Below, piece by piece: positions 16,100 through 58,814 of a stretch of DNA of 64,000 nucleotides (positions are counted from its first letter, which is position 1; every line of letters starts with the position of its first letter). The stretch comes from Schmidtea polychroa (Eukaryota): positions 12,650,001 through 12,714,000 of the forward strand of contig CM097885.1 in assembly GCA_044892525.1 (NCBI GenBank). Direction: 5' to 3'. The position numbers and the translations under genes were made by a program. The notes beneath the pieces are model-generated. The model ran no database searches. It saw only the letters and a list, made by a program, of their open reading frames with translations, and was not told where the DNA came from.

Positions 16100-16354
16100 C
16101 ATTTCGAACTGTAACTATTCACAAAATTTTTGCTGTTTTATTATCTTCTGATGAAACCGGTCACCTTAAGTGGCCACTGCTTGCTTATATTTGTCATTTT
16201 CTCTGTTTAATTAAAGTATTTTTGTGTTAATTTGATTTTATGTTTGTGTGGATTTTGATTGTGAGATTATGGGTTATACCGAAAGAAGGTATGATCTAAA
16301 TGTATGATATTGTGTGAATTGCGGGACGCAATTTTAACGGCCCCCGGAGTGATT

Positions 16355-23807: not shown

Positions 23808-23898
23808 TTTAGTACAACTTCATCATTATACGACACAGATATTTTGAGTTGAAGAATCATTCACCTTCGCTGACGAATTATATATTGATAAACTTGAT

Positions 23899-32610: not shown

Positions 32611-35449
32611 TAATAAATAATTATAATAATAGTAAATTTTATTATGAGTTTGTTGGGGATGATTGCATCTTATCTTTCTTGCGTAAGGTGGAGGAAATTG
32701 CTATGACAATTGTCCTGCCATATTAGGAAATTAATGGGAAAAAGCCCATGCAAACCTTGTCTTTCGCTAAAGAGCGGGCCTTTCGTGATTCCAGAACTGT
32801 TATCTTTGTAAAAAAATTATTAGAAATAGAGTTAGGGATCATTGCCACTTCTCAGGTAAGTATTTAGGTGCTGCTTGTAGGAACTGTAATGTGTCTCGGC
32901 GAATTCAGAGACAGTTACCTGTGGTTTTTCACAATTTGAGGGGGTATGATCTTCATCATATTTTGAAGTATGGGCTAAATAATTTTCCTTCTTGGGAATT
33001 AAATATTATTCCGACCACTACCGAGAAATTCATCTCCCTCATCGTGTATATTAACAAACTACATGTTCGTTTTATTGACAGCATGCAGTTTGTTAATTCA
33101 TCTTTAGCAAAAGCGGTTAAGACTCTTTCCGATCTGCCTTTAACTTCTTCTGTTTTCGATGGCGCAATTGTTCGAGCCAAAGGTATCTTTCCTTATGACT
33201 TTGCCACATTTCTTGAGGTTCTTGAATCGACTCTTGAACTACCTCCGATCTGGGATTCTGTGTCTAATGATGAATATGCATTAGCCCAAGTTATTTGGAC
33301 TCAGCAAAATTGCAACAATATGTTAGATTACATGTTAACTTACCTGAAGTTAGACGTGTTTCTCCTCGCAGATTATTTTGCTTACAATGGTCTGGAGCCT
33401 CTTAATTTCTATGGAATTCCCGGTATGTCATGGGCCTCTGCGCTTATGACATTAACGGAATCCATTGAACTTTTGCAGGACATGGAAATGTTTAATTTCT
33501 ATGAAGAAGGGATACGGGGTGGGTTAACATTTGTTAACAAACATTATGTTGTAAGTTCTGAAGACACAGAACTCTTGTACATTGATATCAACAACTTGTA
33601 TAGTTGGGCTTTAAGCCAAAATCTGCCTTATGCAAACTTTGTTTGTGTGTATGAGAATTTTGATGGTGTGCTGAATGAATGCATGAATTCTGATATAGAT
33701 AACCTTCCATATGGTTATACTATGGAGGTATCGATATCCCTCAGTGTGTGCATGACTTTCTGAATGATTTTCCGCTTGCTCCGGAAAAGATGTGCCCGCC
33801 AAATTCGAAAGTTGAGAAGCTGATGCTCACGCATTGGCCAAAGAAGAACCATGTTCTTCATTGGAGGCTTCTCAAGTTGTATATCGAATTGGGGGCTATT
33901 ATTAAAAATGTACATAGGGCAATTAAATTTACGCATGCACCTATTTTTAAACAGTATATACATAAAAATACACAATTAAGAGCCAATTTCACGTGCGAGC
34001 TGTATAGAGATTTGTATAAACTATTTAATAACAGTCTGTATGGGAAATCCGTAGAAAACCTTAAAAAACGGATGAATTTGAATTCATCTGAAAAGATGAT
34101 TGTATATGCGTCAAAGCCGACTTTCAAGAAATCTATCAAAATTGATGATGACTTGATTGATGCTCATCTCAATAAGGATTCTATATGTTTAGACAGGCCT
34201 AGCTACATTGGCCAAACGGTGCTAGACCTGTCTAAACTGAGGATGTACCAGTTACAGTATATAGAATTGGCTAAATATAGAAATGAATTTAAATATGAGA
34301 TAAATTTCGTTGCCGGCGATACTGACTCCTTTTTTCTTGAGGTTAGGCACTCTCTTTTGCCGGCAATGATTCGTGACAATCTTTTAGACACTTCCAACTA
34401 TGACCCTGCACATCCCTTATACTCTAGAAACCTTGATTCTGTGATAGGTAAATTTAAAGATGAAAGTAAAGGTCTAGGGTATAAGGAATGGGTTTTCTTA
34501 AGACCCAAGTGCTATAGTTTGTTAGGGGCTAAAGATCATTTAAAAGCAAAAGGAGTCAGGTTAATAGGTACAGAAATTGGGCACGATTCATATTTAGAAT
34601 GCTACAATAACAACGTAGTATTTTCTGTGCCACAAAGTAAGATAGGGACGCGGAACCACCAATTGTACACATTCAAAAACAATAAAATCGCGTTGTCAAA
34701 CAACGACGACTAGCGGTTTTGGGTGAGGAAAAATTCCAGTCTCGCATTTAGTCATTATTTAGCACTAGATGACATAAATGATGATCAAATATTTGAAGAA
34801 GTTGGGCCACTATTCGGAGGATTAAGTCCAGATTTTGTTTCTGGTGATGAGGAAGTGGGTCCACTTTTCAATGGTTTAAGTCCAGATTTCGATTCTGGTG
34901 ATGATCCTAATGATGATGATGAAATAGATATAGATGATATTTTATTGTCAGACTAAACTGTGATATATGTTAATATATCGTTTTATTTTGAAAATCATTT
35001 CTTCTACATTGTTTTATTATCTAAAATTTTTATTGAAAACTCGTTATAGTTTTCACAATTCTTACAATTGTTAAACACTTGTATAAATATATTTATTAAT
35101 ATTGTTAAAGTTTTTATAAATCATGTAAGTGTTTAACTATTGAAAGAATTTGGTAGAAATATTTATTTGAAATGAATGTTGTAGTGAGCATACAACTACA
35201 TATATGAGTTGACAATATTAAAAAAAAAATAAGAACTATAAACTTGTATTTAAACTTGTAACAGAAAAAAAAATTTAGTTTGAGTATATATATATAGTAT
35301 AATATTTAGAATTTCTTTGTTAAAGTTTTGCCTTGAATATTTTTAGTAGTAACTTTGTGAACAGTACCCATGTGACTTGTTGAGCGTGACCAGTACCCAT
35401 GTGTGCAGTACCCATAGGGGGACAGAATATCTTGTCGGATAAACTCGGA

Positions 35450-39499: not shown

Positions 39500-40975
39500 A
39501 TCTCACGTAGAAAATTTTCGCTTATAACAGATCTAATTTGGAAATGGTGTAAAATAAATATTTTATTATTGGTAGATAAATGTTGCCAAAATTGCATTTA
39601 TTTCATATTTTGTTAAAAGAAAAATATTTATTAAAAAATTTAAAAAAAATTGAATAAATATAAAAATAAATCAATACAAAGAAAACATTTATTTTGAACA
39701 AGTGACAAACATAAAGAAATGTAAAACGAAAGCGTTCAAATATTTGATAAACTCAGTGAAAATGAGAGAATATGTGACTCTAACAAAACGTTTTGATGTT
39801 GAAATGTTTATTGTTTCTATGGATATTGTTGTTGGGAATGTTATGAAGATTTCAAGGAACTCCTAAAGGTCGATTGGCCATTCAGAAAATCTGTCATTTA
39901 TATATTTTACATTTGCTAATTCTGTTTCAACTTGCCGAATTTCATTGGCGCATTTCGCCATTTCAAGCTGCAACTGAATCTCAAATTCAAACATTTCAAA
40001 TAATCAATAAATCACCTTTTCATTCTCCTGTTGCAGCCGCTGCTCGCATTTCTCTTTCATCTCATCAATTTGCTGTTGACATTTTGATTCAATCACATCA
40101 ATTTGCTGTCTGACCTGCTTTGCATCAATAATAAATCAATAACAAATCAAATCAATATACAAACTTGATTGATTGATCCAATATTTGTATCCATCTCCAT
40201 TCTCAATGAGCGATTCTCATTCTTCAATGCCACCATTTCCTCATTCAATTCTTCTATTTCTTCTCTGTTCTCCGCCTCTTTCCTTTCAACATTGCACAAT
40301 TTCACCTACAATCACAAAATATCAATAAAATTAATTACAAATAAAAATTACATGGATATAATCAAATTGTTGTTTGAATTGCGTCATTTCTCCTTTCAAT
40401 TCGGTAATTTCGTTATGCAATCTCACATTCTCATCTCTCATTGATTGCATTCCATTGCATAAATTACTGATGTGATCGATCAATAATTTGCTATGGGCTT
40501 CATTGTTCTCATTGAGATGGACTTTCATTTCGTCCTTATCCACCTCATTCGTTTCGCATCCAATTCTATTGAACGGACATCTGATTGGTTGCTTGTTGCA
40601 TGTTCTCATGTGGCTCTCCATCATGCACAACTCGGTTTTCAATTCACAATTTTGCATTGGGCATTTTACAATAACTTCAGATATTTTTAAATTGGCTACA
40701 TGATCCACAGAAACATCATTAGTGAAAAGAATCGTTTGAACTTGACAATATTTTGCTGCTCCTGGACAGAATTTATCTTTTCCATCCAAATAATGTTCAA
40801 TGCAATCAGAACAAAAGCGACAACCGCAAGGAGCTTGGCAAGCTTTTATCATTAAACATTTGCAGATTTTGCATATCAATTCACTGCTGATTTCATTATC
40901 AAATTCAAATTTATTTCTCTTCATTATTTCCCATACATTTGCAAACATTTTATCTAAAATTAACAAAATTATCAA
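39500..40975 (-). pseudogene. Host-type TRAF-like gene (RING, TRAF zinc finger, coiled coil); downstream exons appear degenerate
   Basis: LICKICKCLMIKACQAPCGCRFCSDC, VKCPMQNC, HMRTC..QPIRCPFNRIGC in ORF 40331..40975; GT-AG introns and coiled-coil exons follow; no intact MATH found; 3' boundary approximate. Confidence 0.7.
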
Positions 40976-42399: not shown

Positions 42400-43646
42400 C
42401 GATGCCAGCTTCTAGAGCTTTGATTACGAATCGAATGATTTACAAATACTTTTGTTTCAATGTTAAATATTTGAGGTGAAAGCTGCAAACCAAAAAAATC
42501 AATATATTTGATCAATATCAATATTTCAACTTTATTGATCATGTAGACAATTTATTTAATTTCGAATATTTATTAAATACTGATTTTAGAGTGTAAAATT
42601 GAACCATCAATATTTCTAGATCTGGATTGCTTTGATTGTTGGCAAATTGAATATACTGATTAATCAATATTTCCTATAAAACATATTTAATCATGTTGCG
42701 GGGCCCGAAATCTGTCGAGTTAATCATTTGTAAATTACAAAAATTGCAGATCGATAATCAAATGACCAGCACGAATCAACAAAGAATTGATTATATTCAC
42801 ATTAGGAAATTAGGACATTTTAGCACTTGATTGCACACTTGTGCACTCAAAATATTCAACTAAAATTCAATTTTACATGTAAACATCATTTTTTCACTAT
42901 TTCACTTTAATCAATATATTTATAATTGATAAATATAAATAATAATAGCATTTTGTCTAAAAGTCATGGTGGACTGCCATCATATTTCCAGCTTCTATGG
43001 CTTTGATTACGAATCGAATCTATCTACAAATTGTTTTGTCTATATGTTAATTATTTGAGGTGAAAAAGCTGCAAACCAAAAAAATCAATATATTTGATTA
43101 ATATCAATATTTCAACTTGATTATATAGATAATTTCATTTGATTTTAAATATTTATTAAATACTGATTTTTGAGTGCAAAATTAAACCATCAATATTTCT
43201 AGATAATTATTATACCATCTTGACAGGCAATTTATTACGAGTGTAACGATATGGAGATTATTTATCTGGATGGCTTTGATTGTTGGCAAATTGAATATAC
43301 TGATTAATCAATATTTCCTGTAAAACATTTATTCGTGTTGCGGGGCCCATATCTTATAGTCAAATGTTGTATAGTTGGTAGGAAATCTGTAGAGTAGATC
43401 ATTTTTAAATTACGAAAATTGCAGATCGATAATCAAATGCCCAACACGAATCAACAAAGAATTGATTATATTCGCATTAGGAAATATTTTTGGACATTTT
43501 AGCACTTGATTGCACACTTGGCCACTCAAAATATTCAACTAAAATTCAATATTACATGTAAACATCATTTTTACACTATTTCACTTTAATCAATATATTT
43601 ATAATTGATAAATATAAATAATAGCATTTTGTCACAAAGTCATAAT
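42400..43646. repeat. Tandem duplication of a ~600-bp unit
   Basis: CCAGCTTCTA..GCTTTGATTACGAATCGAAT at ~42405 and ~42988, with colinear similarity thereafter. Confidence 0.9.
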
Positions 43647-44470
43647 AGTAGTGTGTATATATACCCAACCAACACAACCCTCCCAACTAAAACATACCTC
43701 CATTATGCTTAAACCATTAGAAAAACAACATAAAACCTATACTTTTATAGTATTTTAACCCCATATTTTAAACAACAACCACCCTTAATCTTTAAAGCCT
43801 CAAACTCAAAAGCTTCAAACTAAAAAGAGAATAGAAAAGAAAATGGCATTATGAAAAAGTTAGAGGGCTATTTGATCTTTATCAGATTATTGAATTTAAA
43901 TTATATAAATTAAAAAATAAATGAAAAATAGTAAAACTGCTCTGAGGAGACAGTGGTATTTTTATTTTTTTTTTCACTGTCCCCTCAACAGTTTTTTTTG
44001 ATCCGGATCATTTTTTTATTTATCAACCTCTTTCGTTTATCGAATCTCTTCCAATATACAAGCTGGCCAGACTCATACATCAGAATCAATCCGATAATAG
44101 CAGCACACCTTATTATTCGCTTCTCGCTCGAATACGATTTCATCGGCGTTTTAAGTGTGCTGCTCGAAAGTACAAATGAATTCGAAAGTGAATCCGAAAG
44201 AGGTCCGAAAACAACTGAGAAATAAATGTGCACATTAAAGAATCGATCCGGGGGTGTTCGAAAGACAGGTGGCGATAATTACCGGTTCGCCACCATCACC
44301 CGTTTCAATAATTTTTTTTTCATATTTATGTTTAAAAAATAAAATAATTAATAAAATAAATAAAATAAAATAAAAATAAATAAAATATACAACTACTTTA
44401 TAAATCTAAGATACCCACACTATTATTTTCAAATTTTTAATATTATTTTATGTTGAAAAAAAAACTAACC
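43647..44470 (+). repeat. Left TIR of Polinton B
   Basis: Near-identical reverse complement of ~57748-58567. Confidence 0.95.
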
Positions 44471-44539
44471 TCAGATGTGATTTGAACCGCTAGCATTTTG
44501 AACCACTGTGCCAGTCTATTCCCATTGCGCCATCAAGGT
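44468..44539 (-). ncRNA. tRNA-like Pol III unit (left)
   Basis: A box TGGCGCAATGG at position 8, B box GGTTCAAATC, followed by a T-run. Confidence 0.6.
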
Positions 44540-44643
44540 TTGAATTTTTGTCATTTTTTAAATTTTTATTATAAAAAATGAATAATATAAATCTTAAAAA
44601 ATAAAATGAAAACAGGGTATCCAATAAAAAATTTTTTCTAAAA

Positions 44644-47600
44644 ATGAATTGTAATATTTGCAATAAAGTTTTTAAAAATAAAACTGGATTAATTTCTCAC
44701 TTAAAATCGAAAGCTCATTTATTAAAAGAAAATAATCTTAATGATACAAATTCAAAACTTTGTCTTAAATGTAAAGGAAGATTTCTACATTCTGGATATA
44801 ATAAACATTTTGAAAATTGTATCGGGAAAAATAGAGAAATATTTACATGTCCTCATTGTAACTTTTCAACAAAACTAAATTTCTATTATTTAGAACATAT
44901 AAAAGAATGTAAAAATAAAAAACAAAATTCTGACGATGAGGAATGTCATTCAGAAGGAGAACCTGATCATGTTGAAAGAGAAAAATATAACTGGGATAAT
45001 TTTAATCATATAAATGAATTTCAATTAAAAATTAATGGGCCTGCAACTCCTGGAGAATATATAAATAAAAATAAAAAAAATATTAAAAATTCTTTCACTG
45101 AAGCTTTTAAAAATTATAAACCGACAAGGTATAATGTTATAAAATATAAAATTATAATCAAAGCAAAATACTGGCGAGGAGCAGAAGAAAAGACAACACC
45201 CTTAGATGTTGAAATTGGAATACCTTTTAAATATTTATTTTCAATTAAAGGATTTGATAAAACCATCAAAGAAATAATTAAAGCAGCAGAAGCAAAACAA
45301 GAGGAAGTAGAAAATGAATTAGGAGATTCAAACTTAGTATTCAACTCTTTCCAAACTTTAGTGATTGATTATTGGAGAGGATTACCACCCAATCCTAAAT
45401 CTTATATTCCTACACCCTTTAAATCTAAAAATGTTATAAATGTACAGAATAATGATAACAAATGTTTCATCTGGTCAATACTTGCACATTTACATCCTCA
45501 AGCAACAAATCCCCAAAGAGTTTCAAAATACAAACAATATGAAAATGAATTAATATTTCCCAAAGGATTCAAACACCCAATGAAACTAGAAGACATTCCA
45601 GAATTTGAAAAATTAAATAATCTTAAACTTAATATTTATGAACATGTTATAGGGAAAGAAATTATTCCAATTTATATTTCAGATAGTGGAACCAAGGATA
45701 ACGGAGCACAGGACAACGAGATATATCTTTTAATCTTGGAACAAGAAAATAATCAACATTATGTTTTAATAAAAAACTTTCAAGCTTTTACATCTCCAGA
45801 GAATCCAACTAGTGGAGGAGGAACATGTAAAAGATGTCTTCATTATTCAACAACTAAAAACTCTATGATTAAACATACAAGATTTTGTGAAAAAGATGAA
45901 CCAGCTTTAATTAAAATGCCTAATAATCCCAAGATGTATTTTAAAAACTTTTCAAATTTACTACAAACAGTTGGAGTTCTTTATGGTGACTTTGAATCTA
46001 TAAACCATAAACAAGATTTGGTTTATCAATATTTAAAAATAATAGAAAAAAATAAACTCATGGATTTATGGAACTCCTCAGGAGAGAAGATGAAACCAGA
46101 GAGGATGAAAGCCTTTCTAAGAAAAAGGAATAAACCTAATAGTGTTAAAAAAACTAAACAATTACCATCTGCTTATAAATTATTATTAAAAAGTAATTAT
46201 CCTGAACTCATAGAATCTAGAGAATATTCAATTCTAGGAGGTACCCCTGAAGAAGTCTTGAATCATTTTACTAAAAATATAAATGATCTAGAACATGAAA
46301 TATTTAAAATATTAAAAACAAAGTATCCTCAAAATATTTCTAATCAACAACAACAAGAATATGAAAATACTTCCAACTGTTGGATGTGTAAACAGAATAT
46401 TCTTCCTGATGAAAAAGTTATAGATCATGATCATTTAAAAAAGGAAAATAATTATCGAGGAGCAGCTCATAAAAATTGCAATCTTAATTGCCATACTCCT
46501 AAATTTATACCTGTTATATTTCATAATCTTTTTGGATATGACATACATCTATTTATTAAACATTTAGCAGCAAATGCTAAAAACTCTTTCAAAGTTATCG
46601 GCTTAACAAAGGAAAAATATAAATCAGTTGAATATGGAAAATTAAAATTTATAGACTCGTTAAACTTTCTTCAAATGTCTCTAGATGGAATAGCTAAAAC
46701 AATGAAACCAGAAGATTTTAAAATCAATCGAGAATTCTTGGAAAAAAATAATATTCCTCTAGAAGAATATCCTACATGTTTAGCAAAAGGAATATATCCT
46801 TATGACTATGTTGACTCGTTTGAAAGATATAATGAAACAAGTCTTCCTAACAAAGAAGATTTCTTTTCAAACTTACTACAATCAGGGATTACAGATCAAG
46901 AATATTCTCGAGCATTAAAAATGTGGGAATTATTCAAGTGTAAAACTTTAGGAGAATATACCAACATGTATTTATCCTTAGATGTTTATATTCTAGCAGA
47001 TTGCTTTGAAGAATTTACAAACTCTTTTGTTCTTAAACCTTATAATTATATAACTGCACCCTCTTTAGCTTGGGATACTATGTTATATACCATTTGGACT
47101 TCAAATATAGAAGATGCTGATAAAATTATAGATCTTTAAACTAAGCTCGATATGTTTAACCAAATTAAAACAAACATTAGAGGAGGAGTCTCTTCAGTAA
47201 TGGGGAATAGAGAAATAAAAGCTAGAAATGCAATAACTACTAGCCGAAGACTCTCTAAACACCCTGATGATCCATATATGAAAATTAACAATGAGGAATT
47301 AAAAGAATTATTAGAAACAATGAAAAATCCTATATTTATACTTTATATAGATGCAACAGCTTTATATTCAGGAATTATGACTCAATATTTACCAATGAGT
47401 GATTTCACTGAAATAGAGAACCCAACAGATGACCTTATGAAAGAAATACTTTCAACATCGAAAGATTCTCCAATAGGTTACTTTATAGAATGTGACCTCG
47501 ACTATCCAGATGATATAAAATCAGGAACAAGATATTTTCCTTTAGCTCCCATAAGAAGAAAGATTGATATCAACGAACTTTCTGAATGGCAAATCTCACA

Positions 47601-48924
47601 AGATAAACCTCCAACAATGAAACTTCTTTGTGATCAAACAGATCGAAGGTTTTATCTTTGTCACTATAGACTCCTCCAATTTTATCTCTCACGAGGAATG
47701 ATATTAAAAAAAGTTCATAGTGTCATAAGATTTAAACAAGCTCCATTCATGAAAGCTTTTATCGAGGAGAACATTAGGTGCCGAAACATTGCAAAAAGAG
47801 AAGGTAATCTTTTTAAAGATAATAATTATAAACTTTTAAACAATTCAGTCTTTGGGAAAACAATGGAGAATGTTGATAAATATACTCATATTGAACTCCT
47901 AACAAATACTACCAAAGATATTAAGCGTTATAATCGTATGCTAGGAAAGCCCACATTTAAAAACGCACAAGTATTTTATGAAAGTCTTACTGCAGTAGAA
48001 CTAAAGAATTTTGAGAAAACATATAATAAACCAATATTTATAGGGTTTTCAATTTTAGAACTTTCAAAATTACAAATGTATGAAACATATTATAACATCT
48101 TACAACCTATATACGGAGCAAATATATCAATGCATGCAATGGATACAGATTCAATGTTTTTAACCATAAGAACTCATGATTTACAAAGTGATATAGCTGA
48201 AAATCCTATACTTTCAAATTTAATAAATTCATCTGGAGAACTTTTTTCATTTAAAGATGAAAAACCAAATACTCCTATAGAAAATGGAATATTTATTCGT
48301 GCTAAACAATATTCATACGAAACATTTACAAATCCTGAATTTATAACTAGATCATTTATATTTAAAACTCCAGAAACAGAATAAACCATTTCACATAGAT
48401 ATCCTATATTTCCTAAAGAAGAAAAACCCGTAAAGGATAACAGATGTAAAGGAATACAGAAATCAGTTGCAAAGAATCTTTCTCATCAAGATTATATAGA
48501 TACATTGAATCCAAATCATAAAGATAAAATTGATGAAATACATCAACTTAAAAGTGAAAACCATGATATTCACTTGATAGAATCTCAAAAAGTATCATTA
48601 TCAAATTATGATGATAAGAGATTCATACTAAGTGATTTAAAGACAACTCTACCTATTGGAAATAATTTAATCCCTATAATAAAAAATCTAGAAAAGTTGA
48701 ATAAGTTATATGATACAAAGATTACTGATCTTGATATTTATAATGTTGAAATTATTTATCCCGAGAGAGAAATCGAGAAACCTTTATATTCTCAAGTTTT
48801 TAATCCTATATGTTTAGAACTTAAATATTTTAATACTGATCCTGAATATATAAAAGGTCTAAGTGATAAAGAATTTAAAGATCATAAATTAATGATTCAT
48901 AGGTTGGCTTTCAACCATAACTGA
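44644..48924 (+). pseudogene. Polinton pPolB with N-terminal zinc fingers; two in-frame TAA stops (47137, 48382)
   Basis: CNIC...HLKSKAH, YGDFES, DHDH, FHNLFGYD, KGIYPY, YIDATALY, NNSVFGKT, DTDS, DDKR; three ORFs in one frame. Confidence 0.96.
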
Positions 48925-49027
48925 AACCAACGATATTTAATAATAAAATGTCGACAATTAATTTAAGCAACTATAGCAACCTGATCTACTTTTTTAAAAA
49001 TACACCCATTTTATAAGTAAGAATTCT

Positions 49028-49606
49028 TTAACCATTTTTCTCGAGATCTTTTTTATTACTTATAACATTAGCCACCATGCCCTCCCTTTTTAATCTTATA
49101 ACCTCATTCTTTATATCTTGTATTATTTGATTTGATTTCATTATTTCTTCGTCTGTCAGGATTCCATCTTCCAAAGCTTTTAATTGAAATAAAAATAATT
49201 TAGAGATTCCTAATTCTATTGATAAACAAACTTCTCTATATAAACTTTTCTTTTTAGAAGTATAAGATAATGAAACTATTTCAGTTAAGAAACCATCAGC
49301 CACAGAAATACTTCCAAGTATTACAGGTGCAAGAGTAACAACTGGTAAAGTTATGGGTAAAATAACTGTTAATATTGCAGATGCAAATCCTAAAGAATAA
49401 CCTATAACTTTTAAAACTGTATTCCCTTTATTCCATCTATTTTTAATTTTTTTATAATGCTTTAATAAATCTTGTAAATGTAAGGTTTCTGATTTAAATT
49501 CTTTTACTCTCATAATTTCAAGTTCTGTGGGAGCCGAGGCCTTGGAAGAATAATATCCTGATGATCTCAATTCTGGGTAAATTTTTTCTTCTCTTACTTC
49601 TTCCAT
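49028..49606 (-). CDS. Polinton membrane protein
   Basis: 192 aa with hydrophobic hairpin VIGYSLGFASAILTVILPITLPVVTLAPVILG. Confidence 0.7.
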   Translation of the reverse strand: MEEVREEKIYPELRSSGYYSSKASAPTELEIMRVKEFKSETLHLQDLLKHYKKIKNRWNKGNTVLKVIGYSLGFASAILTVILPITLPVVTLAPVILGSISVADGFLTEIVSLSYTSKKKSLYREVCLSIELGISKLFLFQLKALEDGILTDEEIMKSNQIIQDIKNEVIRLKREGMVANVISNKKDLEKNG

Positions 49607-49614
49607 TTTAATAA

Positions 49615-50624
49615 TTAAAAAAATAAGACTTTATTCTTCTGAGCACCATCTGGCACCAATACTCGGATATCAAAAGAAACTCTTGTTGAGAGGATATCTT
49701 TATACAATTCTCTCAATGCTTTACGAACTTCATCAACATCAACCTTTTTTTCATAAAATATTAAATCTATATATTGTACAAGTGAACTAGAAAAATGAAT
49801 ATTCTTACTTTTAACTTTATGTAGTCCATGTGAATGAGTATTAACATACCAATCTCCGTGTGGTAAATCATAACTAGTCATTATAACATCACCCTTTTCA
49901 AGCTTACTATTATAATCACATTTCACAAACCATTTCATTCTTTCATTATCATCATCAAACAAAAAGAAATAACGATCAATAATTTTTACAACCATAAAAA
50001 CACCCCATTCTTTACTGTTTGTTGTTATTAAACTTGGTTCTATAAAATGTTTATATGTATGGGGTAATAATGTTTTATTCTGTTCTAATTCAGCAGCTCT
50101 TTTTCTAATACTATGTGTGGTGTTAATGTGTGTTCCATGAGACTCTAAATTTGAAATTCTTTTATTAAATGATGTAATCATCTCATTTATTATATTATAT
50201 ATTGCATTAAATTTAGTATTCATAATTTGTTTATCTTTAGAATTTAATATAGCAGTATTTAACTTTACAACTTGTTCAGTTAACAGACTTTGTAACTTGT
50301 CAAATTTATCATTAAATCGTTGTTCGATATTATTAAGCTTTGATTCCATTGAATCAATTTTGTTGTTAATGAACTTTCAATTCTTGTTGTTGTTAAATCA
50401 GTATATTTTTTAACACCATCTACATATTTCTTATTAACTGCATCAGCTTCATCAGTTGGAAAAGATAATTCTTTTATCTTGTGTCCATTTAAAATTAAAT
50501 CACCCTTCATTGAATCACCTCTTTCATTAATATATTTATTTTCTGTTAAAGTTAATATTTCTTCTGTATTAAACCCTGTTTTTATTGTTCCACCACCTCT
50601 ATTACATGGAATATAAGAACTCAT
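49615..50624 (-). pseudogene. Putative fiber-like protein, split by a 1-nt frameshift near 50360
   Basis: YINERGDSMKGDL.LNGHKIKEL..PT...DAVNKKYVD fiber-type motif, then coiled coil, IRKR site and globular C-terminus. Confidence 0.6.
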
Positions 50625-50648
50625 TTATTAATAATTTAAAATGAATCT

Positions 50649-51413
50649 TCAAACCTGTTTCAAATGTAAATACATTGAAATCTCTTCTCCATTAAAATCA
50701 ATCAATTCTCCTTCTTGATTAAGAATTTTAAAATTAATATCCATTATATATTTTCTACATAAAGGTAAATAATTTGGAGGATTCATTCTTTCAACTATTT
50801 TATATCCCATAGGAACTGTGTTTGAGGGAAAGGAATATAAAACATTTGTTTGTTTACCATTATTATAAGAACCTGTTATACAATCGCAATGAATATTTAT
50901 TGTGTTTGTATTTATTATTTTTATAATATGTTCTGATGTTATTATTTTATCTTCTTTTATTGTTATATCCATATGTTTAAATCCTAAAACTGTGTGAAAG
51001 AAACAATTATCTAAAAAACTAATTTTTATATTCTTCAAAGTCATTACACATTTTGAAGTTGGTATATCCGTTTTAATTTTAATACCTTCATTTGTTTTTT
51101 TAGAAAGTATATCATTTAAATCTTTTATCTCATATGCCCCAGGTTCTATTGTTATAATTTCTGGTTTATGCCCATCACGAGTTTGAATAGTAAATTTATT
51201 ATTATCTTTAGTTATATTAAAAATAGTATTATAAGCACAAAACCATAATAGCCCCAATTCATAATTTAAATTTTGATCTAATTTAATTGAATCTTGAAAG
51301 TTTATAGTAAACTCTGATTCTTTTGAATTTATAGATAAAGTTCTTGAATATTTATCTGACATTATGTTTACCATTTTTTTTAAATTATTTTCCGGAGGGT
51401 TGTGAAGCTCCAT
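50649..51413 (-). CDS. Polinton minor capsid (penton-like) protein
   Basis: YNTIFNIT..NNKF, IEPGAYEIKDLN, NIHCDCITGSY, YLPL, NQEGELIDFNGE...LHLK. Confidence 0.85.
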   Translation of the reverse strand: MELHNPPENNLKKMVNIMSDKYSRTLSINSKESEFTINFQDSIKLDQNLNYELGLLWFCAYNTIFNITKDNNKFTIQTRDGHKPEIITIEPGAYEIKDLNDILSKKTNEGIKIKTDIPTSKCVMTLKNIKISFLDNCFFHTVLGFKHMDITIKEDKIITSEHIIKIINTNTINIHCDCITGSYNNGKQTNVLYSFPSNTVPMGYKIVERMNPPNYLPLCRKYIMDINFKILNQEGELIDFNGEEISMYLHLKQV

Positions 51414-51461
51414 TTCTTTAGTAGTAAATTCATATAGTAAAAATCCTTATAGTAAAAATCC

Positions 51462-52776
51462 TTATAGTAGAGATTCTAGATTATTATAAATTTCTTGAAT
51501 TATAGATTCAAAATCCTGCGTATGCCCCTTTCCCTCTCCCTTATTCAATCTATACAAAACATATAAACTTAAAATACCACATATTTTAGTATTCAAAGGT
51601 TTGAACTTGTAAAGAGTTAAAAGTATAACCATTTGGGGAATCAATCGGAGAACCCCTCAAGAGATAATCTTCAACTTCTTTAGTAGGTTTAATCCCAAAA
51701 GAATCAAAGTAGATAGATTTCTTATATATACAAACCCAATGAGATCCTTTTTCATTTAAATTTTGATAATTGATTATTATATTCAGGGGACTCTCCAGAC
51801 TTGATAATTCATCATTCATTAATATTTTAATTTTTAAATTTAAATAATTTGCATAATCTTTTAAATCAAAATTTGTTTTTGTATTTATTCCAAATGTTTT
51901 TAAAAAATCTAAATTAAATTTATCTTTTGAAATTATTCCTTGTTTTAACAAATCTTTAGAAATCTTTAAAATATCAGAATCTAAATTATTATGTCCTGCT
52001 TTCCTTGCAGCTAATAGTTTTCTTAATTCAATAAAAAGATTGATGGGATTTGGTTTACCACCTTCACTAATTAATCCCTCTCCCTCTGTAACAACATAAC
52101 CCTTTTCATTTTTATCTAAATAATTCTTTAAATCTTGAATATATTTTGCTTTAGAACTAGCTCTTATTAATCTTATTAAATTTAAATATTTTTTAATTTC
52201 TTCAACATCATCTGAAGAATATCCACAAAGTAATCTATAAAAATCATCTGTAAATTCAAAGTCTAAATATTCATTATTATAAACATTTTGTGAATGAATA
52301 CGTGATTTATTTTCTGAATTTGAATATAAAGTAAAGTTTTGTTTATTAATTGTTATTATTTGATATCCTTCAGTATTAGTATTAAATGTGGGTCTAATTG
52401 AAGGAGGTAAATCATCTCTAATTTTAGGATCAACTTTAAGAGGTTTTGTTTTTAAAAACATTTCTTCTTCTTCCACATTAGAAATTCTTCTGCGTTTTCT
52501 TTGATTTCTTTCAGGATGGTTTTCACTGGATTCTTTTTCTTTATCCTGCCACTCTAGTTCTTTTATTTTTTGTTTTTTATCTTCTAACTCTTTCAATTTT
52601 GCTTGCTCATTGAAATCTTCCAACTCTTTTATAGCTTTAATTGTTGGCCCCTGTTGTTGTGTTATTACCTCATTTAATATTATAGATTCAGCATGTTGAG
52701 TTGTATCTTTTTTATTATATTTATCTTGTTCTGATTGTAATTTTTTTAATAGTGCTAATCTTTCTTCATATACCAT
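51462..52776 (-). pseudogene. Adenain-type protease with long N-terminal extension; frameshift near 51600 separates the catalytic Cys
   Basis: IINY...KGSHWVC, YFDSFG, QVQ; KICG in the shifted frame (ORF 51462..51644). Confidence 0.85.
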
Positions 52777-52798
52777 TTTAATGGTATCAAAAATGGTA

Positions 52799-53368
52799 TC
52801 ATAGTTCGAAGGGCTTCAAGTATAATCCTTTACCATTTTTAGTTTTACAAAGGCATCCATTCTTTAAAGATTTACATATTTTTTTTAAATCTTCTTTATC
52901 TTTTGAAGATAAAGATTCAGATGTAGATTTTTGATTTTTTAAAAAATCATTTAAACCTCTACCTTTATAAGGATCAAGATAGAGACCTTTGCCCTGAGAC
53001 TTTTGCCGACTCCTCTCATATGGATTAAGATAGAGACCCTTTCCAACGGACACTCCCCCTTTAGCTTGCCCTACCTTCTTCATTGAATCGATTTCAGTTT
53101 GTAGTTTTTCTTTTTCTAGGTGTGTCTTTTGAGATTCTTTAGCTTTTTGAACTGTAGTTGCAATTCCTCCAGCTATTCCAGCAGCACCTGATAGTCCGGC
53201 AATGATTGCAGGTATTAAAGCAGCTAATGGAAGAATGCCACCTTCTTTAATCTTCGATCTAACTTGTTCTTTTACATGTTTTCCAATAAAATATTTTTTA
53301 CCATCAATTACTACTGATTTATTTTTATTTGAATTTATTAATTCTTGCAAAGATTCTTCAGTTGTCAT
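52799..53368 (-). CDS. Basic virion-precursor-like protein with hydrophobic helix and repeated GKGLYLxP
   Basis: KEGG followed by ILPLAALIPAIIAGL; three GKGLYL(N/D/K)P repeats. Confidence 0.75.
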   Translation of the reverse strand: MTTEESLQELINSNKNKSVVIDGKKYFIGKHVKEQVRSKIKEGGILPLAALIPAIIAGLSGAAGIAGGIATTVQKAKESQKTHLEKEKLQTEIDSMKKVGQAKGGVSVGKGLYLNPYERSRQKSQGKGLYLDPYKGRGLNDFLKNQKSTSESLSSKDKEDLKKICKSLKNGCLCKTKNGKGLYLKPFEL

Positions 53369-54175
53369 TTTATAATAAACAAAATGGATATTTGGAAACC
53401 AATTTTAAATAGACATAAGAGTAAATTTAATAATAAAGTATTTCCTGATAATTTTAGATTATTAATTGTTGGTTCTTCTGGATGTGGAAAGAATGTACTT
53501 GTTTTGAGAATGTTACTTGAAGATGATTTTTTAGATTATAATAATTTAATCTTTTATTCTACAACCATAAATCAACCAGAATTACAACTTTTGAAATGTG
53601 GATTTGAAAATAAATTAACTAAAAAAGCAATAATTGATATTTTTAAAAATCAACATAGGTGTCCTGAAGAAGTTTTTCAACCTTGTGATATGGTTGATTG
53701 GTATAAGGAAAAGATTTTAGAATCAGATATTAGTAATAAAAATGATTATATTTGTGAAGAAGGGCAGGAGGCAATTCAAGTTTTATTCTCTAATAAACCT
53801 GAAGATGTTTTACATTGTGATTTACTTCCTAAAGATAAAAAGAATCTAGTTATATTTGATGATGTTGTTAATATGAAAAATCAAGAGATTCAAAAGAGTT
53901 ACTTTACACGAGGTCGACATAATAATTGTAATGTTATTTATATATCTCAAACATATTATGCTTTAGATAAAAATTCAATAAGAAATAATTCCAATTGTTT
54001 TATATTTTTTAAATTAGATCGCCGTGATAAGAATATGATTTATAATGATTTATTTTCAAATGTTGAACCTGATAAGAATATGTTTGATATGTTTGTTGAT
54101 AATCATTGGAAAGAAAAATATAATTATATTTATTTGGATAGAGAAGAAGCTGAAATATGGAAAAGTTTGTTTTAG
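53345..54175 (+). CDS. Packaging ATPase (A32/FtsK-like); likely ATG at 53384
   Basis: Walker A GSSGCGKN, Walker B LVIFDD, RGRH, YISQ, IRNN. Confidence 0.93.
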   Translation: MQRFFSCHFIINKMDIWKPILNRHKSKFNNKVFPDNFRLLIVGSSGCGKNVLVLRMLLEDDFLDYNNLIFYSTTINQPELQLLKCGFENKLTKKAIIDIFKNQHRCPEEVFQPCDMVDWYKEKILESDISNKNDYICEEGQEAIQVLFSNKPEDVLHCDLLPKDKKNLVIFDDVVNMKNQEIQKSYFTRGRHNNCNVIYISQTYYALDKNSIRNNSNCFIFFKLDRRDKNMIYNDLFSNVEPDKNMFDMFVDNHWKEKYNYIYLDREEAEIWKSLF

Positions 54176-54186
54176 GGCTTGTCGAC

Positions 54187-55590
54187 TTAAAAATCTGTTT
54201 TCTGTAGTTCATTATTATAAAATCTACCTAATATTTTTTCATTATTTAAATCAAAGATGCTATATGTTATTGGAGTTGTATAATGTATTTTATTTATAAT
54301 AAAAATTTCATTTGTCCATTTTGCTGTGAATCCTTTTTCAAATTTATTTTTATATTTAAATATTCTTACTCGGTCACCAATTTTAAACTTTGGTTTTTCA
54401 ATAACATCATTTTCAATATTTACCACTTTAATGGTTTCAGGCTTCATGGAAGCATTTAAAGGTGTTAATTTTATAGAACTATGTACATCATTATTATATT
54501 CATTTACAATCTTTTGTAACAATTCATTGTTCCATTTTTGTTTTCCAATAGCAGTAAAATATTTCCACATTTTATTTTTTAATGTTCTATTTAATCTTTC
54601 AACTACGACTGCTTTTCCTTCGTTTTCTGTTGAATATAATTTAATATCATTTTCATTTAAAAACTTTGTAAAAACTTTGTTATAAAATTCTGTTCCTTTA
54701 TCACACCATAAATATTTTGGGATTCTTTGATTTTCTTCAAATATATTTTCAAATGCTTCTCTAATAGAATATCCTGTTTTATTTTCTAAACATCTTGCAA
54801 AAGCAAATCTTGTATATAAATCTATTACAGTTAAAATTATTTTATATTTTTCAGGGTCTGATGATTTGGGCATAAAGACTAAATCTGCAGACCATGTTTG
54901 ATCTTTTTCATGTACTTGAACTTTTAAATATTTATTATTTTTTCTAAATTCATGGTGTAATTCCTTTGCATATTTTATTTCTGATTCTGTTGGGGTTTGT
55001 AAACTAGTCTTGGCTGTACTCTCGAGGGATCTTTCAATCTCTGCTTGTTCGATAATCTTTTTATAAGCAACATCTTTTGCTTTCCTAGGAAGTCTTGCAC
55101 CCATGGTGATCGGACTGTGTCCTAAGCCTATGAAAATCTTACCTTTCATTGCTAATTTAACTAGAGCTCTTTGAATCTTTTCTTGGGTTGATGGATTTTG
55201 GATACTATTTAAATCATGTATTAAATTCACATCTGCAACATGTCTATCTCTAAGATTTGTTGAATTGTATGCAATGTCATGTTTTAAAGCTGCTTGATCA
55301 ATTCTATTTATTGGTTCTTCTCCTTGTTTGGGATTATTATTTTCATCTAATCTAATATCTAGACTTGTTCCTGGTCCGGTATAGTTGTGTTTAAATAAAT
55401 GTCTTTCACCTGGATATTTTTCTGTAGTAAAAGGTTTTAATATTGAAGATGTTGTTTTTGAAGATTGTAGGTCGCCTCCGGCTCGTGGAATCATGTCGCC
55501 TCCGATATGTTTTTTAGTTTTTAGATGACTTGCTTTATGATGTCTTGTAACTTGACAATTACAACTTTCACTTCTCCAATAGAGAGACAT
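54187..55590 (-). CDS. Retroviral-like integrase with N-terminal parvovirus-type phospholipase A2 domain
   Basis: HNYTGPGT...NRIDQAALKHDIAY; WSADL, CDKGTEF, ERLNRTLK, KFKIGDRVRI. Confidence 0.92.
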   Translation of the reverse strand: MSLYWRSESCNCQVTRHHKASHLKTKKHIGGDMIPRAGGDLQSSKTTSSILKPFTTEKYPGERHLFKHNYTGPGTSLDIRLDENNNPKQGEEPINRIDQAALKHDIAYNSTNLRDRHVADVNLIHDLNSIQNPSTQEKIQRALVKLAMKGKIFIGLGHSPITMGARLPRKAKDVAYKKIIEQAEIERSLESTAKTSLQTPTESEIKYAKELHHEFRKNNKYLKVQVHEKDQTWSADLVFMPKSSDPEKYKIILTVIDLYTRFAFARCLENKTGYSIREAFENIFEENQRIPKYLWCDKGTEFYNKVFTKFLNENDIKLYSTENEGKAVVVERLNRTLKNKMWKYFTAIGKQKWNNELLQKIVNEYNNDVHSSIKLTPLNASMKPETIKVVNIENDVIEKPKFKIGDRVRIFKYKNKFEKGFTAKWTNEIFIINKIHYTTPITYSIFDLNNEKILGRFYNNELQKTDF

Positions 55591-55607
55591 TTTAAAATGT
55601 TAAAATA

Positions 55608-56894
55608 TTAAGAATCTCCCCTAACATTTTCGATTATTGAAATCTTTCCACCATATAATTTCATTTCTATTTTCTTTTCTTCTAATATTAATGTATATAC
55701 TTTAGCTTTAAAATTAGAATCCTTTGTTATATGAAGTGTAATATCAACATTATTTATGGCTAGGCGATCATCTTGGTCTGAAACATTTATACAAAATATA
55801 GAATATAAATTTTTGAAATCTTCTAAACTTAATTGCGGTTCAACTTTGAAATCATAACATGTTTCAATATAATTTAGATATGGGAATATGTTTTCATTAT
55901 TTTCAATATTAAATTCCATTCTATTTATTGGATAATAAGAACTATTTAATTGAATTTGGATTGTTTTTAAATTATCAACTCCAATCTTTTGAATAAACAA
56001 GTTGTTATTTTTTTGGAAAGATTAATCTACTTCTTTGAATCCAATCAAGATATATCTTGGTCGGTATGCTAAATTTGCTACCTTTATAGAATATGTTGAA
56101 CCCTCTGTCATACTAAATTCACTACAGATTCTATTTAAATAATTTACATTTATAGACTTGTTGGAATTTAATCTTTCAAGGAGTTTGATTTCAGAATGTG
56201 GATTTAATGTCCATTCAGGTATATGCCATTCAAGTGTTGATATTTTTAATTTAGCTGTTGTATCCTTATCTCCATAGAACAATCTTTTATCACCTTCTAC
56301 TCTATTACAAACTAATTCTATAAAAACATTATGAAGTATACGATTATAGTTTTGAAGGAATCCAAACAAGTGTTTTAATTCAAAATAACCTTCAAATTTT
56401 TTAGATTTATAAAGTTCAGCTCTTTTATAGTAACCATAATTTATATCTAAACCATCTTTATCTAAATCTCCTTTATTAACATCAGGAATCCAGCCTGTTA
56501 ATTCACCATATTCGTTTTTATAATCACAACCAGTTAAAATAAAATTTAACATTGTAGAATATACTCCTGGATGTAAAACAGTTTCAATTTCTGATGATCC
56601 TAGTTTTAATCTCATATTGGAGAATAAATTTGGAAAGAAATTATTTTCTAGGGTTATATCTTTGTTTGCTTCAATTTCTAATTCGATTTTATAATATAAT
56701 TTGGCATTACAAATATCTATAGGGTTTGATGTTTGAAGAGATTGAAAAACTATATCACCCCTACGATTTAAGTTTGCAATAGATCCTGAAGTTGGGGAGA
56801 TTTTAAGTACATCGTTTTTCTTGATTTCATGAGTAAATTCTTTATTATAATCAAGATTTAATTTATTTTTTTCTTGAATTTTTATATTATTCAT
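55608..56894 (-). pseudogene. Polinton major capsid protein, in-frame TAA at 56022
   Basis: NNFFPNLFSNMRLKLG, LKHLFGFL, RPRYILIGF, LNSSYYP, IFCINVS; two ORFs in one frame (~428 aa). Confidence 0.82.
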
Positions 56895-56950
56895 TTTTAT
56901 ATATTAAAATTTACACACACAAAATAGGATTAAATAAATATATTATGTAA

Positions 56951-57032
56951 GCCATTATAGCGGAGTGGGAATAGGCTTCAATTTTATCACCGGGAGTACC
57001 GGGTTCAATTTTCGATTTTGGTCAATTTTTTT
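56951..57032 (+). ncRNA. tRNA-like Pol III unit 1
   Basis: A box TAGCGGAGTGG at position 8, B-box-like GGTTCAATT, T7 terminator. Confidence 0.55.
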
Positions 57033-57195
57033 CGATATTTTTTTTTTCAACGGAATCTGATTCAGCGTACTGATTTTAGTATTTATTTAAATTTTCAGAT
57101 GGATCTGAGTGGTAGTTGTCGAGAAAATGAATAATTAATTATTAATTTCATCAAAAAATAGTCACACATTAACAACTTATTTTATATTGAGTATA

Positions 57196-57276
57196 GCTCT
57201 AATAGCTTAGTGGTAATATCACTCGACTGCATTGCCAATACCAATGGGTTCAAAGCCCATTTCGGTCATTTTTTTT
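57196..57276 (+). ncRNA. tRNA-like Pol III unit 2
   Basis: A box TAGCTTAGTGG at position 8, perfect T-arm AATGGG-TTCAAAG-CCCATT, T8 terminator; GACTGCA resembles a tRNA-Cys anticodon loop. Confidence 0.65.
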
Positions 57277-57431
57277 CAAATTTTTTTAACGAAATATTGA
57301 TCAGCATACTCGATTTAGTACTTGTACAAATTTTTAAGGTGATTGGTCAACGGCAACTCTTGGAAATTTAAGATCAAAAACGTTTTAACTACCAAAAATT
57401 AATATATCCAATAAAAAAAATATTTATAAAA

Positions 57432-57701
57432 ATGGATGAGTTAAAAGAAAGAATGAGAAATGAATTGAATGAAGTTAAACATAAGAGAATGAAAAGAAGA
57501 GAAGAAGAACCATTAGAATACATCAAAGAGTTGATGGTAGATAATGAAAAGTATCGACATTTTTATATGAAGGCTGTAGATGTTGCTGATATAAGATTGA
57601 AGAAAATGAAACAATTACAGGAAAGAGTTAAAGAACTTGAATCGATTATTTATAGTCTAAAAAATAACAAAAATCCAAACCTAGATAGCGCAGTGGGCTA
57701 G
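57432..57701 (+). CDS. Small coiled-coil protein
   Basis: 89-aa ORF with AAAATG context, E/K/R-rich helix. Confidence 0.6.
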   Translation: MDELKERMRNELNEVKHKRMKRREEEPLEYIKELMVDNEKYRHFYMKAVDVADIRLKKMKQLQERVKELESIIYSLKNNKNPNLDSAVG

Positions 57702-57760
57702 ACCGGCACCGTGGTTCAAATGGATAGCGGTTCAAATCCTAACTGTGGTTAGTTTTTTTT
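57679..57760 (+). ncRNA. tRNA-like Pol III unit 3
   Basis: A box TAGCGCAGTGG, B box GGTTCAAATCC, T8 terminator; diverged mirror of 44468-44539. Confidence 0.6.
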
Positions 57761-58567
57761 CAACATAAAATAATATTAAAAATTTGAAAATAATAGTGTG
57801 GGTATCTTAGATTTATAAAGTAGTTGTATATTTTATTTATTTTTATTTTATTTTATTTATTTTATTAATTATTTTATTTTTTAAACATAAATATGAAAAA
57901 AAAATTATTGAAACGGGTGATGGTGGCGAACCGGTAATTATCGCCACCTGTCTTTCGAACACCCCCGGATCGATTCTTTAATGTGCACATTTATTTCTCA
58001 GTTGTTTTCGGACCTCTTTCGGATTCACTTTCGAATTCATTTGTACTTTCGAGCAGCACGCTTAAAACGCCGATGAAATCGTATTCGAGCGAGAAGCGAA
58101 TAATAAGGTGTGCTGCTATTATCGGATTGATTCTGATGTATGAGTCTGGCCAGCTTGTATATTGGAAGAGATTCGATAAACGAAAGAGGTTGATAAATAA
58201 AAAAATGATCCGGATCAAAAAAAACTGTTGAGGGGACAGTGAAAAAAAAAATAAATACCACTGTCCCCTCAGAGCAGTTTTACTATTTTTCATTTATTTT
58301 TTAATTTATATAATTTAAAATCAATAATCTGATAAAGATCAAATAGCCCTCTAACTTTTTCATAATGCCATTTTCTTTTCTATTCTCTTTTTAGTTTGAA
58401 GCTTTTGAGTTTGAGGCTTTAAAGATTAATGGTGGTTGTTGTTTAAAATATGGGGTTAAAATACTATAAAAGTATAGGTTTTATGTTGTTTTTCTAATGG
58501 TTTAAGCATAATGGAGGTATGTTTTAGTTGGGAGGGTTGTGTTGGTTGGGTATATATACACACTACT
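57748..58567 (-). repeat. Right TIR of Polinton B
   Basis: Reverse complement of the left TIR. Confidence 0.95.
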
Positions 58568-58814
58568 CATAATGGACTGCTAGTAGATTTCTAGTAGACT
58601 TCAAAAATGCAAAAAATGTTTTGACATTAAATTTATTACAATATGAATATTTAAACACAAAAATCATTTATTATTGTGAACTGTGGAACCCATTTACCTC
58701 CAAGTTAACATTTTGACAAATATTTTTTGATTTTAATTATTACAGATTAAATTAAGTACCACAAATAGAGGATAAAATTTACAATTAAAATCAAATAGTA
58801 ATTTTAATTTGAAA

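What the first reader, a model, noticed from the sequence alone, without database searches (positions are those of the whole stretch)
44455..44550. Fourth tRNA-like unit sits exactly at the inner edge of the left TIR
Seen: TIR identity is near-perfect up to the T-run terminator, then drops across the tRNA-like unit (ACCTTGATGGCGCAATGG.. vs ACCTAGATAGCGCAGTGG..) while both A and B boxes are retained. Both end units point outward toward the termini. Inference: the coding core is bracketed symmetrically by Pol III units kept by selection rather than TIR homogenisation, which fits an insulator or origin-activating role.
Basis: partly seen in the sequence, partly recalled or inferred. Interest (0 to 1): 0.7.

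Follow-up and report, generated by a model that had tools for sequence, protein, structure and literature searches.

The report
tRNA-derived unit inside Polinton end repeat
A virus-like jumping element (Polinton) carries at both ends a worn-down tRNA look-alike that keeps the signals read by RNA polymerase III; it is there twice because it is the older, inner part of the element's mirror-image end repeat, and it may be a small-RNA gene of the kind adenoviruses use, though transcription is not shown.

Summary
In a 14.9-kb Polinton (6-bp target duplication), the end repeats differ at 6 places in 817 nt, but at 14 of 75 across an outward-facing unit with A box, doubled B box and T-run terminator. 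Four such units exist (none expected from shuffles); none is a tRNA cloverleaf. The inference is only partly supported. Homology continues 21 nt past the unit, and just inward the left end holds a copy of the capsid gene's first seven codons, so the unit is an older layer of the end repeat, copied from a right end. In contigs of three other runs left- and right-type letters mix, so they are not two fixed end-specific genes. Avoidance of invariant box letters is suggestive only (0 of 12, P=0.064). Other Polintons carry tRNA-derived Pol III units elsewhere: inside the repeat facing inward as a strong hairpin (z -4.9), or between genes. Best reading: a Pol III unit doubled by end-repeat copying, most likely making a 75-80-nt RNA (0.45); a TFIIIC/chromatin or origin role is a close rival (0.3). 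Expression could not be tested. New variant of viral Pol III small-RNA units; not found described for Polintons in the searches run.

The parts
43647..58567 (.). Polinton/Maverick (adintovirus-like) element, decayed copy
   Evidence: termini and 6-bp target duplication at 43641-43646 / 58568-58573; Pfam hits
43647..44463 (.). left end repeat, homogenised core (6 difference events in 817 nt)
44456..44464 (-). T9 run, Pol III terminator of the left unit; the homogenised repeat begins here
44465..44539 (-). left unit UL: tRNA-derived type-2 Pol III unit facing outward (A box 44522-44532, extra B-box copy 44497-44504, B box 44479-44488); 5'/3' terminal stem, no cloverleaf
44540..44560 (-). AT-rich leader, homologous to 57658-57678 (2 differences in 21)
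44567..44604 (+). relic of the capsid (MCP) gene start: 8-codon mini-ORF at 44578 whose first 7 residues equal the N-terminus of the natural capsid homologue P0121
44644..48384 (+). protein-primed PolB, in pieces (44644-47139, 47152-48384); starts 105 nt inward of UL, head to head
52799..53368 (-). ORF with weak adenovirus pX-like hit (E 0.009)
53384..54175 (+). A32-like packaging ATPase
54187..55590 (-). PLA2-like domain fused to rve integrase
55608..56894 (-). double-jelly-roll major capsid protein, in two ORFs (56022-56894, 55608-55919)
56951..57032 (+). unit U1, head to head with the capsid gene (57 nt); T7 terminator
57196..57276 (+). unit U2, tandem duplicate of U1; most tRNA-like (full-length Rfam tRNA alignment, 17.7 bits, below gathering 29); T8 terminator
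57432..57701 (+). 89-aa coiled-coil-like ORF running into U3; no family
57679..57760 (+). right unit U3, homologue of UL (A box 57686-57696, extra B-box copy 57713-57720, B box 57729-57738, T8 57753-57760)
57753..58567 (.). right end repeat, homogenised core

Best explanation
The left unit is a tRNA-derived type-2 RNA polymerase III gene that belongs to the Polinton's terminal module. It stands at both ends because the inverted repeat was copied from a right end in which the capsid gene abutted the unit (shown by the capsid-start relic); the right end of this copy also holds a variable cassette (U1, U2, small ORF) between capsid gene and unit. The outer 817 nt were homogenised recently; the inner ~100 nt (unit + leader) are an older or incompletely converted layer carrying two alleles of a polymorphic family pool. 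Selection keeps the unit transcribable (A box, B box, spacing, terminator, a 5'/3' terminal stem) while the cloverleaf is lost. Most likely TFIIIC/TFIIIB load on it and Pol III makes a 75-80-nt non-decoding RNA ending in U, a functional analogue of VA RNA, BocaSR or herpesvirus vtRNAs, with gene dose doubled by the repeat. Shown: anatomy, nested repeat layers, allele mixing. Inferred: constraint on boxes (weak), the conversion mechanism (panhandle-type copying, recalled from adenovirus). Not shown: transcription and what the RNA does.
For: Complete gene layout in 4 of 4 units, T8-to-B spacing 43-44 nt, terminators of 7-9 T, beyond shuffles; units stay 44-51% GC in 8-28% GC flanks. U2 aligns end to end to the Rfam tRNA model. 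Capsid-start relic: 7 of 7 residues equal P0121; 18-nt exact match, reached by 0 of 610 control tiles; contigs join 56897/56901 to 57670/57658. Allele mosaics in X5, X10, X11. Terminal duplex of UL -11.0 kcal/mol, reached by 0.7% of 5000 shuffles; U3 -7.1 (7.7%); native pairings sum to -18.1, swapped to -12.3. Other Polintons: 3 of 81 related loci (3 of 12 of 8 kb or more) carry tRNA-derived units with terminators; in L077 the unit is rebuilt into a rod hairpin (z -4.87, 0 of 200 shuffles), which only matters for an RNA; in L060/L080 it keeps acceptor, D and T arms but has an abnormal anticodon loop and lies between genes. Analogues: BocaSR, a Pol III RNA from the 3' non-coding end of a parvovirus with a role in DNA replication (PMC11194592, passages); TMERs (PMC6315926, passages).
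Against: No expression data. UL and U3 fold no better than shuffles (z -0.75, -0.23) and their internal folds differ; U1 and U2 show no significant terminal duplex (18% and 52% of shuffles). The one position pair that looks compensatory between UL and U3 is uncoupled in X11. The best-conserved part is the doubled B box (0 of 18 changed, P=0.013, post hoc), which fits DNA binding by TFIIIC equally. One search shows only 40 of 102 variant rows, contigs cannot be phased, and some records are filtered out. Part of the 18-nt relic match is a start-context motif shared by several genes of the element; the local alignment score alone (77) barely exceeds the best control tile (75). Only one of 9 long related loci had both end repeats; 9 of 12 long loci showed no unit.
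Confidence: 0.45

Rival explanations
1. Cis role: the units are landing pads for TFIIIC/TFIIIB (with or without transcription) that keep chromatin open or act as a barrier next to the head-to-head Pol II starts of polymerase and capsid genes, or help fire the terminal origins; the RNA is incidental.
For: Doubled B box unchanged between ends (0/18, P=0.013 post hoc); no conserved fold; UL and U1 each lie head to head with a first gene, 105 and 57 nt away; precedent of B-box clusters in the inverted repeats IR-L/IR-R of fission yeast (PMC7474672, abstract and opening).
Against: IR-L/IR-R bind TFIIIC without Pol III, whereas these units keep A box, tRNA spacing, terminator and a terminal stem; position and orientation vary among Polintons (L077 inward, L060/L080 internal); L077's unit is a strong hairpin; three units cluster at one end.
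Confidence: 0.3
2. Neutral passenger: a captured tRNA gene decayed and was spread by tandem duplication and end-repeat copying; boxes look kept only because units were recognised by them and because conversion slows decay.
For: Box-avoidance between UL and U3 not significant (P=0.064); leader as conserved as the unit; an evidently functionless capsid-start relic survives beside it; variants lacking 56906-57394 exist in X5, X10, X11.
Against: Four paralogues only 55-61% alike (UL/U3 aside) all keep both boxes, spacing and terminator while middles diverge most (U1/U2: 47% middle vs 68-74% box regions; ascertainment applies); GC islands persist in very AT-rich DNA; units recur in unrelated Polintons.
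Confidence: 0.15
3. Host tRNA-derived SINE heads inserted into the element.
For: Degenerate tRNA with intact boxes is typical of SINE heads (established knowledge); L077's unit resembles one.
Against: No such unit in the rest of the 64-kb window under the strict patterns; a terminator follows at once, with no SINE body or own target duplication seen; four different sequences.
Confidence: 0.05
4. Assembly chimera of two element copies gives the left/right difference.
For: High-copy family with many variants.
Against: Matching 6-bp target duplication at both ends; a single X3 contig carries the left-type letters together (record 23) and another is identical to the window's right side up to 57663 (record 22).
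Confidence: 0.05

Closest known systems
Human bocavirus 1 BocaSR (PMC11194592, passages)
   Same: Intragenic type-2 Pol III unit with A and B boxes in the non-coding end region of a small linear DNA virus
   Different: 140 nt, structured, VA-like stems, one copy, shown to be expressed and needed for replication; here ~75 nt, weakly structured, tRNA-derived, inside an inverted repeat, expression unknown
Adenovirus VA RNA I/II (role from PMC9863843 passage; size and structure recalled)
   Same: Type-2 Pol III small-RNA unit in a linear, protein-primed dsDNA virus of the same broad lineage; terminal stem
   Different: VA RNAs are ~160 nt, strongly double-stranded, internal in the genome; no Rfam VA match here
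MHV-68 TMERs / vtRNAs (PMC6315926, passages)
   Same: Cluster of different tRNA-like Pol III units in a DNA virus; same box consensus
   Different: TMERs keep a tRNA-like fold and run on into miRNA hairpins; here the cloverleaf is lost and a T-run follows at once
tRNA genes of polinton-like viruses, virophages and MELD viruses (PMC12220804, PMC8502044, passages)
   Same: tRNA-related sequence carried by Polinton-class elements
   Different: Those were called by Rfam/ARAGORN and read as decoding tRNAs; these units fail both programs and cannot decode
Fission yeast IR-L/IR-R boundary repeats (PMC7474672, abstract and opening)
   Same: B boxes inside inverted repeats that bracket a domain
   Different: Five B boxes each, TFIIIC without Pol III, host chromosome; here full gene layout with A box and terminator in a mobile element
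BLV compact Pol III pre-miRNA genes (PMC5622367, passages)
   Same: Boxes embedded in a short hairpin gene; fits the L077 unit
   Different: UL/U3 form no strong hairpin

Membership tests
Polinton/Maverick | Long terminal inverted repeats, AGT-type termini, 6-bp target duplication (criteria recalled) | tested here: met
Polinton/Maverick | Protein-primed PolB, rve integrase, A32 ATPase, double-jelly-roll capsid | tested here: met
   Pfam hits above cut-off for all four; PolB and capsid are in pieces
Polinton/Maverick | Adenain-type protease | tested here: inconclusive
   no Pfam hit among 14 element ORFs; the C-terminus of 51586-52776 looks protease-like by eye
Alpha adintovirus | PLA2X gene (PLA2 domain with C-terminal pX; PMC8502044) | tested here: inconclusive
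   PLA2 domain is fused to the integrase; pX-like hit (E 0.009) is on a separate ORF
Type-2 Pol III gene | A box TRGYNNARNNG and B box RGTTCRANTCC 30-60 nt apart | tested here: met
   A box 11/11 in all four; B box 10/11 (UL), 11/11 (U3), 9/11 (U1), 10/11 (U2)
Type-2 Pol III gene | T-run terminator after the B box | tested here: met
   T7-T9
Type-2 Pol III gene | Transcribed by Pol III | not testable with these tools
   only contigs available
tRNA gene | Cloverleaf with D, anticodon and T stems | tested here: not met
   UL: T stem 2/5, D stem 2/4; ARAGORN none at 100 and 90% threshold; no Rfam tRNA match
Adenovirus VA RNA | ~160 nt, strong stems, Rfam model match | tested here: not met
   75-80 nt, z -0.75/-0.23, no match
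TMER | tRNA-like head followed by miRNA hairpins in one transcript | tested here: not met
   T-run directly after the unit
tRNA-derived SINE | Dispersed copies outside the element, body and tail, own target duplication | tested here: inconclusive
   none in the rest of the window; no genome held
TFIIIC boundary element (IR-L/IR-R type) | B-box cluster in inverted repeats | tested here: met
   two B-box copies per end unit
TFIIIC boundary element (IR-L/IR-R type) | TFIIIC bound and H3K9me transition at the element | not testable with these tools
   needs chromatin data

The most novel reading that the evidence does not exclude
Animal Polintons/adintoviruses have repeatedly built their own Pol III small-RNA genes from host tRNA promoters (degenerate rods, hairpins, anticodon-less cloverleaves), a VA-RNA-like layer missed by tRNA finders; in this family the gene is part of the end repeat, and the Pol III complex sitting on it sets the inner limit of end-repeat homogenisation, which is why identity breaks at the terminator.
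Probability: 0.25. Interest if true: 0.75.

Novelty: new variant of a known kind. Interest (0 to 1): 0.5.

Why it matters
Polintons are candidate endogenous viruses related to adenoviruses, but their non-coding regulation is hardly described. If these units are transcribed, Polintons have small Pol III RNAs like VA RNA, BocaSR or TMERs, giving a direct test of whether that strategy predates or parallels adenoviruses and how such elements handle invertebrate RNA defence. The nested layers of the end repeat (homogenised core, polymorphic unit, capsid-start relic) also give a readable record of how Polinton inverted repeats grow, shrink and convert. The specific claim of two independently selected insulators is not supported.

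Tried and rejected
No whole genome is held for the window, so copies could not be compared end by end. No RNA holder listed for 48600-58570; this says nothing on expression. ARAGORN: 0 genes at default and 90% threshold; at 80% U1 and U2 appear among 27 mostly chance calls. Rfam on the element: 3 chance matches; on 44400-44640: 4 chance matches. Viral contigs: no relative from the integrase, capsid homologue P0122, L077 capsid, window ATPase or L080 ATPase, one locus L001 from the integrase alignment without units; exact doubled-B-box pattern 0 matches; genome contigs none. Self-targeting: longest exact match of any unit elsewhere in the window is 11-13 nt, no guide target. Conserved whole-unit fold rejected. 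Apparent compensatory pair between unit positions 9 and ~62 is uncoupled in X11 and mixed in X10. Summed contig depth rises 7-11-fold at the unit's 5' edge in X5, X10, X11 and not in X3; the tool warns that this is no copy number, so it is not used as evidence. The 89-aa ORF has no informative match. No TBP hit among 14 element ORFs, so the mini-TBP noted earlier in this genome is not seen in this element. Earlier-finding look-ups by relatives, by sequence and the first by words returned nothing.

Full report
Setting. The finding lies at the left end of a 14.9-kb Polinton/Maverick, 43647-58567, with AGT-type termini and the same 6-bp sequence on both flanks. Pfam finds PolB, A32 ATPase, a PLA2 domain fused to an rve integrase and a double-jelly-roll capsid; PolB and capsid are in pieces, so this copy is decayed. 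The host is an unidentified AT-rich eukaryote, probably an invertebrate animal (inference from TRAF-like genes); no genome is held.

Observation. The end repeats differ by 5 substitutions and one 2-nt indel over 817 nt down to the T-run, then by 14 in the 75-nt unit and 2 in the 21-nt leader behind it (Fisher P=3e-12). A pattern of A box, B box and T-run finds 3 exact units in the window (0 in each of 60 shuffles) and 4 with one B-box mismatch (shuffle mean 0.017): UL (44539, minus), U1 (56951), U2 (57196), U3 (57679), all facing outward, T8-to-B spacing 43-44 nt. The pattern was recalled; the consensus in PMC6315926 (passages) agrees. None is a tRNA: ARAGORN finds nothing, Rfam finds nothing on the left unit and only a sub-threshold, full-length tRNA alignment on U2 (17.7 bits). 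UL keeps 6 of 7 acceptor pairs but 2 of 5 T-stem and 2 of 4 D-stem pairs; UL and U3 carry a second B-box copy where the anticodon/variable region was.

Of 14 differences in 74 columns none hits the 12 invariant box letters (expected 2.3, P=0.064); 2 fall in the 21-nt span of both boxes (P=0.17), both at degenerate purines; none in the two B-box copies (0 of 18, P=0.013, chosen after looking). With one more variable site from other runs P=0.051. This is suggestive, not decisive. The leader is not more diverged than the unit, which selection on the unit alone would predict.

Why the unit is at both ends. Inward of the left leader lies an 8-codon mini-ORF (44578-44604) whose first 7 residues equal the N-terminus of the natural capsid homologue P0121. 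An 18-nt exact match links it to the capsid start at 56894; 0 of 610 control tiles reach that length (max 16), though part of it is a start-context motif shared with other genes and the local alignment score (77) only just beats the best of 1216 tiles (75). So the left end was copied from a right end in which the capsid gene abutted the terminal unit; the inverted repeat once reached at least 140 nt further in. Contigs of four runs laid on 56860-57960 agree: joints from 56897/56901 to 57670/57658 (X11, X5, low depth), and joints from 56905 to 57395 in X5, X10 and X11, so the U1+U2 block is a variable cassette. U1 and U2 are tandem duplicates including 80 nt downstream (62%), with the middle least alike (47%).

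Left and right are alleles, not fixed paralogues. Of 12 listed variable positions in leader and unit, 11 show the window's left-type letter. One X3 contig carries the left-type letters together. In X11 positions 5, 9 and 20 are right-type in all depth while 26 and 61-68 are left-type in all depth; X10 and X5 are mixtures; the right-side contigs of X10 and X11 have left-type leader letters. The window's right unit holds letters that are rare or absent in all four runs at two positions, as expected from decay after insertion. Limits: 62 of 102 variant rows were not shown, contigs drop rare variants and cannot be phased, only 4 of 24 listed runs were laid, and X3 shares a study with the best holder. 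The simplest account is end-to-end copying with variable inner limits; panhandle-type correction of terminal repeats is recalled from adenovirus work (only a reference title was seen, PMC9863843).

RNA or DNA element. For an RNA: every unit keeps the full gene layout; UL's ends form a duplex of -11.0 kcal/mol reached by 0.7% of shuffles, U3's -7.1 (7.7%). Against: whole-unit folds are unremarkable (z -0.75, -0.23, +0.10, -1.64), U1 and U2 lack a significant terminal duplex, and the one seemingly compensatory pair is uncoupled in X11. For a DNA role: the doubled B box is the best-kept part, and UL and U1 sit head to head with the polymerase and capsid starts (105 and 57 nt). No expression data could be had.

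Other Polintons. An integrase alignment gave 81 related loci (1 viral, the best 80 of 287 metagenomic; 377,930 nt). Two patterns find units with terminators in 3 of 81 (3 of the 12 loci of 8 kb or more): L060 and L080 and L077, twice (shuffle mean 0.07 with T-run). L077 has PolB, ATPase, integrase and a protease-like ORF and 502-nt inverted ends (the only one of 9 long loci checked); its unit lies within the repeat, faces inward, about 290 nt from the inner edge, and folds as a rod (z -4.87); its contig may stop short of the true termini. L060 and L080 are close relatives of each other; their unit lies between protease and ATPase genes, passes Rfam's tRNA threshold (47.8 and 43.3 bits) but has an abnormal anticodon loop. 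So Pol III units recur in at least two other lineages, without a shared position or direction, which weakens a geometry-dependent insulator reading and modestly favours RNA products. Earlier notes of this scan report similar units in other Polintons of the same genome and in other genomes; they are unchecked leads, one of them preferring a machinery-recruiting role.

Literature. Five searches joining polinton/maverick/adintovirus with tRNA, Pol III, B box, VA RNA or non-coding RNA terms listed 1, 5, 10, 15 of 28 and 15 of 21 papers; I saw titles and abstract starts, and none points to Pol III units in Polinton end repeats. Passages read: PMC8502044 has no mention of polymerase III or VA RNA and one of predicted tRNA genes in other MELD viruses; PMC12220804 reports 558 tRNA matches in polinton-like virus/virophage genomes, read as codon compensation. 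Analogues were read as passages (PMC11194592, PMC5622367, PMC6315926, PMC9863843) or abstract and opening (PMC7474672). The library lacks most subscription papers and Repbase reports.

Verdict. Real feature; the symmetry is explained by the end repeat itself, with the unit as an older, polymorphic inner layer. It works most likely as a Pol III gene for a short non-decoding RNA (0.45), or as a landing pad for Pol III factors (0.3); neutral carriage is 0.15. It is not a tRNA, VA RNA or TMER by their defining features. New variant of a known kind; interest 0.5.

Noticed in passing
window 3-16100: Very long Ty3/gypsy-type pol region with a viral fusion glycoprotein domain (PF24664), ankyrin and TRAF/MATH ORFs and a strong AT skew: a giant env-bearing LTR retroelement.
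   Followed up: no
window 22401-23819 (-) and 32789-34713 (+): Two further PolB pieces, 75-80% alike in inverted orientation, with a DDE_1 ORF at 31097-32116; no Pol III units near them.
   Followed up: partly
window 56894, 57432, 53368, 53384, 44578: A TATA-like or ATAAAC word lies 6-9 nt before the start codon of capsid, small ORF, pX-like, ATPase and the left capsid relic, but not before 6 other starts; may be a shared late-gene signal.
   Followed up: partly
window 43930-44300 (and mirror 57916-58285): GC-rich part of the end repeat with two hairpin-like inverted stretches and many TCGAA words; candidate origin or factor-binding region.
   Followed up: no
loose ends at 57015, 57268, 56906-56915: Other runs hold further, different B-box-bearing sequences attached to the same downstream spacer: the cassette of units varies within the family.
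   Followed up: partly
L077:128-210 and 13487-13569: tRNA-derived unit rebuilt into an 83-nt rod hairpin inside a Polinton's 502-nt inverted ends; a good candidate pre-miRNA or VA-like RNA.
   Followed up: partly
L060:11547-11646, L080:12541-12632: tRNA-like gene with abnormal anticodon loop followed by a short hairpin and T-run, between protease and ATPase genes.
   Followed up: partly
window 42438-43623: Host-side direct repeats with 580-680-nt spacing ending just before the insertion site; TRAF-like ORF at 40331-40948.
   Followed up: no
window 61438-62250: Degenerate 6-7-nt tandem array giving Cys/Gln/Met/Pro-rich open frames on both strands.
   Followed up: no
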